Origin: Mizuhopecten yessoensis
Lineage: Eukaryota
Direction: 5' to 3'
Assembly (NCBI RefSeq): GCF_002113885.1
Contig: NW_018407390.1
Coordinates: 2,971,208-3,035,207, forward strand
DNA: 64,000 bases
Shown: positions 6,001 to 9,000 of the stretch, in pieces
Layout: every line of letters begins with the position of its first letter
Numbering within the stretch: position 1 is the stretch's first letter
Made by a program: the position numbers

Positions 6001-9000
6001 AAAAAGAACAGCCCCTGGGAAATACCATCACTCTTATAAAGTCATAAAAGTTAATATTTACACCACATTGTATTGCAGAGCTATGAATAAATTGCATCAA
6101 CGTATGATGTAAGTGTGACGGGAATGTAAATATTATGGTATATTTCTGCTATAAACATAACCATGTGAAAACGTAATTTCTACAAATAATGTGGATAACA
6201 CACTCTGTTGGACATGATATTTTTAACTTACATCATTATGTTGCCAGTCACCGGACTGTTGCCAGAGCTTGCTGTTGTAAATATTAAACCTACATCATAA
6301 TGTTGCCAGTGACCGGACTGTTGCCAGAGCTTGCTGTTGAAAATGTTGGGAGACACAACTTCTTGGAAACCTCTCTTTTTGTATTCACCCTGAAATTGGA
6401 GAAATCAAACGTTCCTGTTATCAGATTAAAATGTTGCTTTTTTTCAATTTCCAAGAAAACAGTAAGGGTTGTTTCGTTATTTATTGTTAAAACCAGATCC
6501 ACCTACCATTCCTTATATTAAATGCTTAAAATTTTATGGATGGTTTGGACCCTGAAAAAGTGCCCTCATTCCTAATGTACTGTTAATTCTGGAACACCCT
6601 TTAAATATGTACTACACATGTATTACAGCCTTACCCATATAGATACCTACTACACATGTATTACAGCCTCACTCTTATATATATCTACTACACATGTATA
6701 ACAGCCTCACCCTTATATATATCTACTACACATGTATTACAGACCCACCCATATAAATATCTACTACTCATGTATTACAGACTCACCCTTATAAATATCT
6801 ACTCACATGTATTACAGCCTCACCCTTATAAATATCTACTACACATGTATAACAGCCTCACCCTTATAAATATGTACTACACATGTATTACAGCCTCACC
6901 CTTATAAATATCTACTACACATGTATTACAGCCTCCCCCTTATAAATATCTACTACACATGTATAACAGACTCACCCTTATAAATATCTACTCACATGTA
7001 TTACGGCCTCACCCTTATAAATATCTACTACACATTTATAACAGCCTCAACCTTATAAATAACAACTACACATGTATTACAGCCTCACCCATATATATAT
7101 CTACTACACATGTATTACAGCCTCACCCATATATATATCTACTACACATGTATTACAGACTCGCCCATATAAATATCTACTACACATGTATAACAGCCTC
7201 CCCCTTATAAATATGTACTACACATGTATTACAGCCTCACCCATATATATATCTACTACACATGTATTACAGACTCACTCTTATAAATATCTACTACACA
7301 TGTATTACAGACTCGCCCATATAAATATCTACTACACATGTAAAACAGCCTCACCCTTATAAATATCTACTGCTCATGTATTACAGACTCACCCATATAA
7401 ATCCCTACTACACATGTATTACAGCCTCACTCTTATATATATCTACTACACATGTATAACAGCCTAACCCTTATAAATATGTACTACACATGTATAACAG
7501 CCTCACCCTTATAAATATGTACTACACATGTATTACAGCCTAACCCTTATAAATATCTATTACACATGTATTACAGCCTCACCCTTATAAATAACCCTTA
7601 TAAATATCTACCACACATGTGTAACAGCCTCACTCATATAAATATCTACTACACATGTATAACAGCCTAACCCTTATAAATATGTACTACACATGTATTA
7701 CAGCCTCACCCTTATAAATATCTGCTACACATGTATTACAGACTCACCCATATAAATCCCTACTACACATGTATTACAGCCTCACTCTTATATATATCTA
7801 CTACACATGTATAACAGCCTCCCCCTTATAAATATGTACTACACATGTATAACAGCCTCACCCATATAAATATCTACTACACCTTTATAACAGCCTCAAC
7901 CTTATAAATAACAACTACACATGTATTACATACTCACCCATATAAATACCTACTACACATGTATTACAGCATCACCCTTATAAATATCTACTACACATTT
8001 ATAAAAGCCTCAACCATATAAATATCTACTACACATGTATAACAGACTCACCCTTATAAATATCTACTACACATTTATAAAAGCCTCAACCATATAAATA
8101 TCTACTACACATGTATAACAGACTCACCCTTATGAAGTCTACAAGAGTGTTGTATATATGAGCTCCTTTGGGGAGGAAGAAACAGCTCCCAGGACTCCAC
8201 TCGTGGAAGAAAAACAATTCTTGTTCCTGAAAAACAGAACATAATACCATGATCATTTTGAAAAGAACTGATTTCATAATTTCCTTAAATAGTTCTTGTC
8301 ATATATGTCATAAATTTAATGGAAGCTACATGTAAGATGTAAGATTAAGCTAGATTCAAATTTTAAATTTCTGAATATAAAAGAAGAAAGAGATCAGCTA
8401 GATAAAGGGTGAAAAGTTAGAGACCATGGCATAAAATTCCCTTCCATGTAGCATTTTGTATGACCTACCCTCCCAAGTTTACGATGGTCCCGTTTTGCGG
8501 CCTCCTCCTGGATGTGTTTCCACTCCTTAAGCTGTTTGGGATCGGGGAAAGAAATACCATACACTCTCTGCAGATTCTCAGCATCAGCCTTACCTTCCCA
8601 GTATGTGGAGGAATTCTAGAAAACAAAGGCCATGTTAAAGGCATGACTTAAAAACTTTTTTCCAGCGTCAACAAAAATGTAACAAGTGTGTTGAAGCAAA
8701 GCTCACTAACCTGAAGAATATTAGAAAAAAAAAAAATTGTAAATGGTAATTAAATTGTAACCGTCATCAGAACAATGTACATAAAGTCAGCAATTAAACC
8801 ACACAAGAACAGTCACATCTGAACTGTGGGCGTTGTCCTTTACAAGAATTTTGTTGGTTTTAATTTCCTCTGCAAGAAAACTTATTCTTTTTTTGTCATA
8901 ATTTAGCTGATATGAGCAGCACTAGCACAGCTATAAGAACTGTTGTAAGACACCATCTTCATTTCTGGAATACACCTTACAAAACAGAAGTTTGCTATTA

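What the first reader, a model, noticed from the sequence alone, without database searches (positions are those of the whole stretch)
6596..8133. Minisatellite built from a splice junction: ~40 tandem copies of the exon 10 donor
Seen: the 38-bp unit spans the last nucleotides of exon 10 and the start of intron 10. On the gene strand most units read ATAAGG|GTGAGG, and several retain GG|GTGAGT (near 8051, 7747, 7392, 6976, 6786). The first downstream copy is mutated (GGTTGAG) and places an in-frame TGA at 8088-8086, so use of any downstream donor would create a premature stop. Inference: a VNTR of decoy U1 sites in an essential gene that could tune output through NMD and is raw material for intron gain by junction duplication.
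Basis: partly seen in the sequence, partly recalled or inferred. Interest (0 to 1): 0.65.

Follow-up and report, generated by a model that had tools for sequence, protein, structure and literature searches.

The report
Splice-donor minisatellite in scallop TARS intron
A 38-base repeat that begins six bases inside an exon of a scallop threonyl-tRNA synthetase gene has copied that exon's splice donor about 40 times into the intron; this arrangement is already known from several human genes and is probably a silent by-product of repeat expansion.

Summary
Tandem Repeats Finder gives one array at 6595..8133, with period 38 and 40.2 copies. The gene on the minus strand is the Mizuhopecten yessoensis threonine--tRNA ligase gene, so the window is scallop, not human. 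The array's first unit holds the last 6 nt of coding exon 10 (8226..8128) and the real donor AGG|GTGAGT. Of the 40 units, 31 keep GT in the donor register, 8 read GTGAGT, and 3 decoys carry the real 9-mer. The in-frame TGA at 8088..8086 is there. An exact 86-nt repeat starting at 8133 shows that the junction itself was copied recently.

This is a known kind of arrangement. The human F7 intron 7 has a 37-bp VNTR whose first monomer spans the exon-intron boundary, and only the most upstream donor is used. 6-16, CBS, LMNB2 and PDGF are further cases (PMC1557585). The public scallop protein model joins 8128 to 6389. No RNA data were available, so tuning through NMD is untested. Intron gain is not supported. 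I rate it a new member of a known kind, of low to moderate interest. The next donor, of exon 11, also carries a 62-bp junction duplication.

The parts
8128..8226 (-). Coding exon 10 of the threonine--tRNA ligase gene (99 nt, 33 aa, phase 0 at both ends)
   Evidence: 100% identical to residues 320-352 of P0004 (M. yessoensis isoform X2) and to the C-terminal end of the partial protein P0003.
8122..8130 (-). Authentic donor 9-mer AGG|GTGAGT (last exon base 8128, GT at 8127-8126)
   Evidence: It matches the consensus at 8 of 9 positions. Its PWM score of 8.6 is mid-range among the gene's other 17 GT donors (4.3-11.9).
6595..8133 (-). 38-bp minisatellite: 40 units plus an 8-nt partial unit. G-rich and C-poor on the gene strand (A .30, C .06, G .28, T .36)
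   Evidence: TRF, unit table, composition, GC skew -0.458 on the + strand.
8086..8088 (-). In-frame TGA in unit 2, 40-42 nt past the real donor
   Evidence: ORF 8086..8298.
7972..8133 (-). Exact 76-bp double-unit duplication: 8133..8048 is identical to 8057..7972 over 86 nt, so units 1-2 equal units 3-4. It starts exactly at the array's exonic edge
   Evidence: longest exact repeat at lag 76 starts at 8133.
8046..8054 (-). Decoy donor of unit 3, with a 9-mer identical to the real donor, 76 nt downstream of it
6970..6978 (-). Decoy donor of unit 31, with a 9-mer identical to the real donor (the whole unit is identical to unit 1)
6781..6789 (-). Decoy donor of unit 36, with a 9-mer identical to the real donor
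6390..6594 (-). Unique 205-nt tail of intron 10, with the acceptor (AG at 6391-6390)
6294..6389 (-). Coding exon 11 (GEYKK...HWQHYD)
6221..6344 (-). Second junction duplication. A 62-bp unit made of the last 51 nt of exon 11 plus 11 nt of intron 11 is repeated once inside the intron (56 of 62 identical). The real donor is GAT|GTAGGT; the copy reads GAT|GTAAGT
   Evidence: TRF row 6225..6344, period 62, 1.9 copies; tblastn second hit 6285..6232; alignment.

Best explanation
This is an intronic minisatellite that arose when a 38-bp segment spanning the exon 10 / intron 10 junction of the Yesso scallop threonyl-tRNA synthetase gene was duplicated in tandem. It then expanded and turned over by slippage or unequal exchange. 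Because the unit begins 6 nt inside the exon, every copy carried a donor-like site into the intron. The intron grew from about 240 nt to 1738 nt. Splicing most likely still uses the first, most upstream donor, and the other sites stay silent or are used rarely. Any such rare product would carry the TGA at 8088..8086 and would probably be degraded or truncated. On this reading the array has no regulatory purpose. It is a tolerated by-product of a repeat-rich genome, and many decoys have been weakened. Shown here: the anatomy, the origin at the junction, recent copying of the junction, and the stop codon. Inferred: which donor is used, the silence of the decoys, and neutrality.
For: Anatomy. The public protein model P0004 reads ...VDFIR|GEYKK..., that is, 8128 joined to 6389. 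Among 982 and 65 candidate proteins, none matching this exon at 100% identity continues into the read-through residues. Tandem arrays make up 13.6% of this window (8677 of 64000 bases), so repeat birth is common here. A tolerated 38-bp duplication in or at a ~237-nt intron would span its donor about 15% of the time. The donor-register 9-mer is the most variable part of the unit: 0.13 changes per site against 0.05 elsewhere. Only 3 of 39 decoys keep the real 9-mer, and the common GTGAGG variant (PWM 6.2) scores below 16 of the gene's 17 other real donors. Precedent: in human F7 IVS7, a 37-bp VNTR whose first monomer is 4 bp of exon plus 33 bp of intron, only the most upstream of 5-9 identical donors is used (PMC1557585). 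ORFs from other animals leave the protein at the same codon (P0121, P0001), so the intron predates the array.
Against: No RNA evidence was available. P0004 is a predicted model and may have been built partly by homology. The F7 rule was shown in mammalian cells, not molluscs, and in two of the listed human cases (6-16, CBS) the two nearest pseudo-sites are used. Unit 3 offers a donor with identical sequence from -6 to +70 only 76 nt downstream, so some use of it is plausible. The higher variability of the donor positions rests on units related by block duplication and is not a formal test. Two of the four arrays in this gene span a donor (P about 0.015 under a uniform null, post hoc), which a purely random origin does not predict well.
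Confidence: 0.75

Rival explanations
1. One reading: the decoy donors are used at a meaningful rate, the products are destroyed by NMD through the TGA at 8088..8086, and array length or composition tunes TARS output.
For: Every downstream donor lies beyond an in-frame stop. Three decoys carry the real 9-mer, and 15 of 39 decoys score PWM >= 6, a level reached by 4.3% of all GT dinucleotides on this strand. Human precedents exist for a link between repeat length and gene output: the CBS 31-bp VNTR (only the title of Lievers 2001 was seen, in a reference list) and the ABCA7 intronic VNTR (abstract). In 6-16 and CBS the two nearest pseudo-sites are used.
Against: There is no transcript evidence. 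The nearest decoy (unit 2) has lost GT, as have 4 of the first 9 units. Most decoys are weaker than the real site. F7 shows silence even for identical sites. A related animal's ORF (P0121) diverges two residues into the intron, so this sequence is not conserved.
Confidence: 0.08
2. The array acts as an intronic splicing aid. Repeated U1-binding-like sites and G runs (GGG in most units) just downstream of a mid-strength donor would help define the intron's 5' border or keep U1 on the transcript.
For: There are 31 GT-bearing donor-like sites, and the gene strand is G-rich (G .28, C .06). That G triplets near donors can enhance splice-site use is recalled from the literature and was not checked here.
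Against: The F7 study found no autonomous regulating element in the neighbouring intron sequence (section heading seen in the outline; discussion). Other introns of this gene work without such arrays. There is no conservation.
Confidence: 0.07
3. The array did not derive from the junction. On this view a satellite present elsewhere in the genome (for example carried by a mobile element), or an assembly artefact, happens to abut the donor and shares 6 nt with the exon by chance.
For: The overlap with the exon is only 6 nt, and the exon further upstream shows no similarity to the unit. The partial protein P0003 ends exactly at the exon's last residue on a 3976-bp contig. I read that as an assembly break at the array, which is an inference.
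Against: The real donor and the 32 intron bases after it form a full unit, so the donor belongs to the array whatever its source. The exact 86-nt repeat starts precisely at 8133. No copy of the unit occurs elsewhere in the 64 kb (34 of 34 matches lie inside the array). The units differ from one another (85% matches), unlike a collapsed or duplicated assembly error.
Confidence: 0.05

Closest known systems
Human F7 (coagulation factor VII) intron 7 VNTR (PMC1557585; abstract, introduction and discussion read)
   Same: A minisatellite of almost the same unit length (37 vs 38 bp) whose first monomer spans the exon-intron boundary (4 vs 6 exonic nt), so the authentic donor is followed by reiterated pseudo-donors in an essential gene.
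   Different: F7 has 5-9 strictly identical copies; here there are 40 diverged copies (85% matches), of which only 3 keep the real 9-mer and 9 have lost GT. F7 splicing was tested with 50 constructs; nothing has been tested here. F7 is known to be polymorphic; polymorphism could not be examined here. The host is a mollusc.
[quoted passage not shown]
   Same: The first monomer spans a donor junction and the donor is reiterated (25 pseudo-sites in 6-16; 15-20 repeats in CBS).
   Different: In 6-16 and CBS the two nearest pseudo-sites are used as well. Here the nearest unit has lost GT, and any use would bring in a stop codon. Primary papers were not read.
Intronic VNTRs whose length correlates with splicing or expression (ABCA7, abstract of PMC5954066; CBS 31-bp VNTR, title only)
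   Same: An intronic tandem array in a gene where length could in principle affect output.
   Different: Those links rest on population and expression data; none exists here.
Intron birth by segmental or tandem duplication (Hellsten et al. 2011, abstract of PMC3265369; Zhuo et al. 2007, title only, paper not held)
   Same: A duplication that copies a splice signal.
   Different: No new intron is made here. The intron already existed, only the donor side is copied, and the acceptor lies in unique sequence.

Membership tests
Minisatellite whose first monomer spans an exon-intron boundary (F7 IVS7 type) | Tandem array of monomers of tens of bp lying in an intron | tested here: met
   TRF: period 38, 40.2 copies, 6595..8133. 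1533 of the intron's 1738 nt are array.
Minisatellite whose first monomer spans an exon-intron boundary (F7 IVS7 type) | The first monomer contains the last exon bases and the authentic donor | tested here: met
   Unit 1 = 8133..8096. The exon ends at 8128, as fixed by the 100% match to P0004.
Minisatellite whose first monomer spans an exon-intron boundary (F7 IVS7 type) | The donor sequence is reiterated in the following monomers | tested here: met
   31 of 40 units keep GT, 8 of 40 read GTGAGT, and 3 of 39 decoys have the identical 9-mer.
Minisatellite whose first monomer spans an exon-intron boundary (F7 IVS7 type) | The most upstream donor is the one used | tested here: inconclusive
   The public model P0004 joins 8128 to 6389. 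No transcript data could be consulted.
Minisatellite whose first monomer spans an exon-intron boundary (F7 IVS7 type) | Copy-number polymorphism among individuals (VNTR) | not testable with these tools
   Only one sequence of the locus is available. No scallop genome collection was open.
Intron created by tandem or segmental duplication | The intron is absent at this position in relatives | tested here: not met
   ORFs P0121 and P0001 from other animals leave the protein sequence right after the orthologous ...I-K codon and continue with V-S or V-R, which fits a GT... donor. This is indirect: no DNA of those records was seen.
Intron created by tandem or segmental duplication | Donor and acceptor come from the two copies of the duplicated segment | tested here: not met
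   The acceptor (AG 6391-6390) lies in a 205-nt unique tail. AGs in the array have weak pyrimidine tracts (maximum 0.59 against a mean of 0.70 for real acceptors).
Regulated unproductive splicing coupled to NMD | The alternative site brings a premature stop into the mRNA | tested here: met
   The TGA at 8088..8086 is in frame and lies upstream of every decoy with GT.
Regulated unproductive splicing coupled to NMD | The alternative site is used in transcripts and responds to NMD block | not testable with these tools
   No RNA data. No protein record with the extension was found among 982 + 65 candidates, which is weak evidence because such isoforms are seldom deposited.
Regulated unproductive splicing coupled to NMD | The element is conserved among relatives | tested here: inconclusive
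   The closest other ORF (P0121, 92% identical in the exon) diverges after two read-through residues. Its taxon is unknown, and only 7 codons of intron are visible.

The most novel reading that the evidence does not exclude
Splice-donor junctions may be preferred birthplaces of tandem repeats rather than random victims. In this one gene, two consecutive donors (exons 10 and 11) each carry a junction-spanning tandem duplication: 2 of the 4 arrays in the gene, P about 0.015 under a uniform null. An unnamed record from another animal (P0001) also shows an independent 102-nt duplication across the orthologous exon 10 junction. If this holds, some property of donors would seed minisatellites. Candidates are microhomology with donor-like motifs nearby, the G-rich non-template strand, or transcription- or splicing-coupled damage. 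Array homogenisation would then reach into coding sequence: here the last two codons, where this scallop has R where three relatives have K. A 40-copy array would also give a natural test, outside mammals, of the rule that the most upstream donor wins.
Probability: 0.12. Interest if true: 0.55.

Novelty: new member of a known kind. Interest (0 to 1): 0.27.

Why it matters
The finding adds an invertebrate example, and the longest one I saw listed, to a small set of natural constructs in which one splice donor is reiterated many times. If transcripts were examined, it would show whether 'the most upstream donor wins', established for human F7, also holds in a mollusc when 31 GT-bearing sites compete and three of them are identical to the real one. 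It also shows how a repeat-rich genome can lengthen an intron roughly sevenfold without touching the protein. The second junction duplication at the neighbouring donor makes a genome-wide count of repeats that start at donors worth running. As it stands, it changes nothing about how TARS or NMD is understood.

Tried and rejected
(1) Longer exon overlap: the 30 exon bases upstream of 8133 show no similarity to the unit beyond chance, so the overlap is 6 nt.
(2) Dispersed copies: none were found in the other 62 kb of the window. The rest of the genome could not be searched.
(3) RNA structure that would mask decoys but not the real site: a fold of 8226..7940 gives z = -2.85 (2 of 200 shuffles fold as well). 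Unit-to-unit AU-rich hairpins pair the bases just 5' of each decoy, but the real donor is also predicted to be paired, in a 9-bp stem with the exon. There is no clear difference between them.
(4) A gene on the + strand: the repeat-driven ORF 6605..6907 (+) has no Pfam family.
(5) A higher-order repeat: mean distance between units is flat with lag (3.8-4.6 differences for lags 1-15). Only block duplications stand out, at lag 76 (86 nt exact) and lag 355 (91 nt exact).
(6) A gradient of decoy loss near the exon: 4 of the first 10 units lack GT against 5 of the other 30; Fisher p = 0.19, and the units are not independent.
(8) An ortholog with the same read-through: the near-length protein search found none. 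The best hit is 92% identical over 53% of the query.
(9) Taxon of P0001: its exon is too conserved to place; the best named matches, at 32 of 34 identical, come from a tunicate, a turtle and a frog.
(10) The paper by Zhuo et al. 2007 is not held.
(11) Other arrays of the window against exons: apart from TARS, the only Pfam hit among 44 ORFs is a reverse transcriptase, so no other gene model was available for the comparison.

Full report
What the window is. The minus strand of 1..16537 carries a threonine--tRNA ligase (TARS) gene. Searched exon by exon, 15 stop-to-stop pieces gave Pfam hits above the curated cut-off for TGS (two pieces), tRNA_SAD, tRNA-synt_2b and HGTP_anticodon. A sixth piece matched tRNA-synt_2b below the cut-off, and the exon 10 piece alone matched nothing. 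A protein search with exon 10 plus its read-through (46 aa, longer proteins only) returned 982 candidates. The only ones at 100% identity were two Mizuhopecten yessoensis records: P0004 (isoform X2, 715 aa) and P0003 (partial, 197 aa). Each covers exactly the 33 exon residues. Seven-residue words of P0004 map without mismatch to single frames of the window for residues 1-666, in 19 blocks. Residue 408 lies in a split codon, and the last ~49 residues lie beyond the window start. I therefore take the contig for Yesso scallop, not human. The window has one N, at 20431, which I left alone.

The observation. Tandem Repeats Finder gives one array at 6595..8133: period 38, 40.2 copies, 85% matches, score 2142. 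Cut in register on the gene strand, it is 40 units plus an 8-nt partial unit. Exon 10 is 8226..8128 and the real donor is AGG|GTGAGT. Unit 1 starts at 8133, so the repeat takes in the last six exon bases. The exon upstream of 8133 does not resemble the unit. In the donor register the hexamers are:
- GTGAGG, 17 units
- GTGAGT, 8 units (including the real donor)
- TTGAGG, 4 units
- GGGAGG, 3 units
- GTTAGG, 3 units
- GCGAGT, 2 units
- three singletons

In all, 31 of 40 units keep GT. Units 3, 31 and 36 carry the real 9-mer. The exact 12-mer ATAAGG|GTGAGG occurs in 9 of 40 units, so it is the consensus rather than 'most'. The TGA at 8088..8086 is in frame and lies upstream of every decoy that still has GT.

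Anatomy beyond the finding.
- Intron 10 is 1738 nt: 1533 nt of array and a 205-nt unique tail that holds the acceptor. With one unit it would be about 237 nt, like introns 7 and 9 (217 and 242 nt).
- The longest exact repeat at lag 76 is 86 nt and begins exactly at 8133, so units 1-2 equal units 3-4. Unit 31 also equals unit 1, and a 91-nt exact repeat at lag 355 marks another block duplication. The junction-bearing unit therefore takes part in the array's turnover.
- The unit occurs nowhere else in the window.
- The gene strand of the array is G-rich and C-poor.
- The nine donor-register positions vary 2.5 times more per site than the rest of the unit (0.13 against 0.05). The two commonest variants (T at -3, G at +6) both move away from the donor consensus. 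This fits weakening of decoys, but the units are related by descent, so it is not a formal test.
- A small PWM built from the gene's 17 other GT donors scores the real site and three decoys at 8.6 and the common GTGAGG decoys at 6.2. Sixteen of the 17 real donors score at least 7.3. The model is tiny and scored with its own training sites left in.

What is known. The arrangement has close precedents. I read the abstract, introduction and discussion of PMC1557585. Human F7 intron 7 carries a 37-bp VNTR whose first monomer is the last 4 bp of exon 7 plus 33 bp of intron. Of its 5-9 identical donors, only the most upstream is used. The pseudo-sites work when the upstream ones are inactivated, and even stronger pseudo-sites (consensus value up to 91) do not compete. 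The same introduction lists 6-16 (25 pseudo-sites, with the two nearest also used), CBS intron 13, LMNB2 and PDGF. A link between repeat length and gene output has been reported for the CBS VNTR (title only) and for an ABCA7 intronic VNTR (abstract). My literature searches turned up no description of this scallop array.

Most likely mechanism. A 38-bp segment starting six bases inside exon 10 was duplicated in tandem. The array ends with a near-copy of the unit's first 8-9 bases, which fits slippage between two short direct repeats 38 nt apart; that step is inference. The array then grew and was reshuffled by multi-unit duplications, which one search shows. The first donor continues to be used (from the P0004 model only; inferred by analogy with F7). 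Decoys are silent or rarely used, and the stop in unit 2 makes any such product non-productive. In a window where 13.6% of bases are tandem arrays, a duplication in or at a ~237-nt intron spans the donor about 15% of the time. No special function is needed to explain the array.

Tuning by NMD is possible on sequence grounds but has no evidence, and the best-studied precedent points the other way. 'Raw material for intron gain' does not fit. Two unnamed ORFs from other animals leave the protein at the same codon (P0121...YIK then VSPILQK and a stop; P0001...FIK then VRV...), so the intron is older than the array. Only the donor side is copied, and AGs inside the array have poor pyrimidine tracts.

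Things that do not fit a purely random origin. The next donor, of exon 11, also has a junction-spanning tandem duplication: a 62-bp unit with 56 of 62 positions identical, whose copy carries GTAAGT where the real donor has GTAGGT. Use of the copy would add 62 nt and shift the frame. Two of the gene's four arrays span a donor, which has probability about 0.015 under a uniform null over tolerated positions. That figure is post hoc and rests on small numbers. P0001, an unnamed 85-aa ORF, repeats 24 exon residues plus 10 read-through residues with 33 of 34 identical. That is an independent 102-nt duplication across the orthologous junction in another animal. The search favoured such hits, because two copies of the exon double the score.

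Not checked. There was no transcript data and no scallop or other eukaryote genome. Cluster members of P0004 were unavailable, and supplements were not consulted. Unnamed protein hits that could be vertebrate or human were not fetched.

Verdict. The feature is real and well described, and it is a new example of a known kind. The proposed function is untested and, by precedent, unlikely.

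Noticed in passing
window 6221..6344 (-): The donor junction of the next exon (exon 11, last base 6294) is also tandemly duplicated. A 62-bp unit (51 nt of exon plus 11 nt of intron) is repeated once, with 56 of 62 positions identical. The intronic copy has the stronger-looking donor GAT|GTAAGT against the real GAT|GTAGGT. Using it would add 62 nt and shift the frame.
   Followed up: partly
protein P0001 (unnamed ENA record, 85 aa; no window coordinates): An ORF from another animal repeats 24 residues of the orthologous exon plus 10 read-through residues, with 33 of 34 identical (period 34 aa = 102 nt). 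This is an independent tandem duplication across the same exon-intron junction. The taxon could not be placed.
   Followed up: partly
window 8128..8130 and 6387..6389 (-): At the junction this scallop reads ...FIR|GEY..., where Pecten maximus and Pinctada imbricata read ...IK|SEY... and P0121 reads ...YIK|. The R codon (AGG) lies inside the array's first unit, so array turnover could in principle rewrite the last two codons. This is speculation.
   Followed up: no
protein P0003 (M. yessoensis, partial, 197 aa, on a 3976-bp contig): This partial record ends exactly at the last residue of exon 10. I read that as a second contig of the locus breaking off at the array, either because it is hard to assemble or because it is a divergent haplotype. 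This is inference.
   Followed up: no
whole window; arrays at 1-457, 16852-16947, 18006-18823, 24034-25166, 27043-27608, 42342-44084, 50989-51391, 57573-59001 and others: The window is unusually rich in minisatellites with periods of 22-141 bp: 8677 bases, or 13.6% of the window. The 55-bp array at 24034-25166 is open in all three + frames, with ORFs up to 361 aa; I take these for repeat-driven ORFs and did not test them.
   Followed up: partly
window 21168..21944 (-), neighbours 20621..21196 (-): There is a reverse-transcriptase ORF (Pfam RVT_1, E = 7e-24), probably a non-LTR retroelement fragment upstream of the TARS gene. The window's single N (20431) lies nearby.
   Followed up: no
window 16476..16477 (-): After the first coding block (ending ...GAAAAG at 16478) the next bases are GC, not GT. 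The first intron of the P0004 model may therefore be a GC-AG intron, or the model's first exon border may be off.
   Followed up: no
window 5702..5789 (-): A 22-bp x 4 array ends 58 nt upstream of the exon 12 acceptor. It is intronic and does not span a junction.
   Followed up: yes
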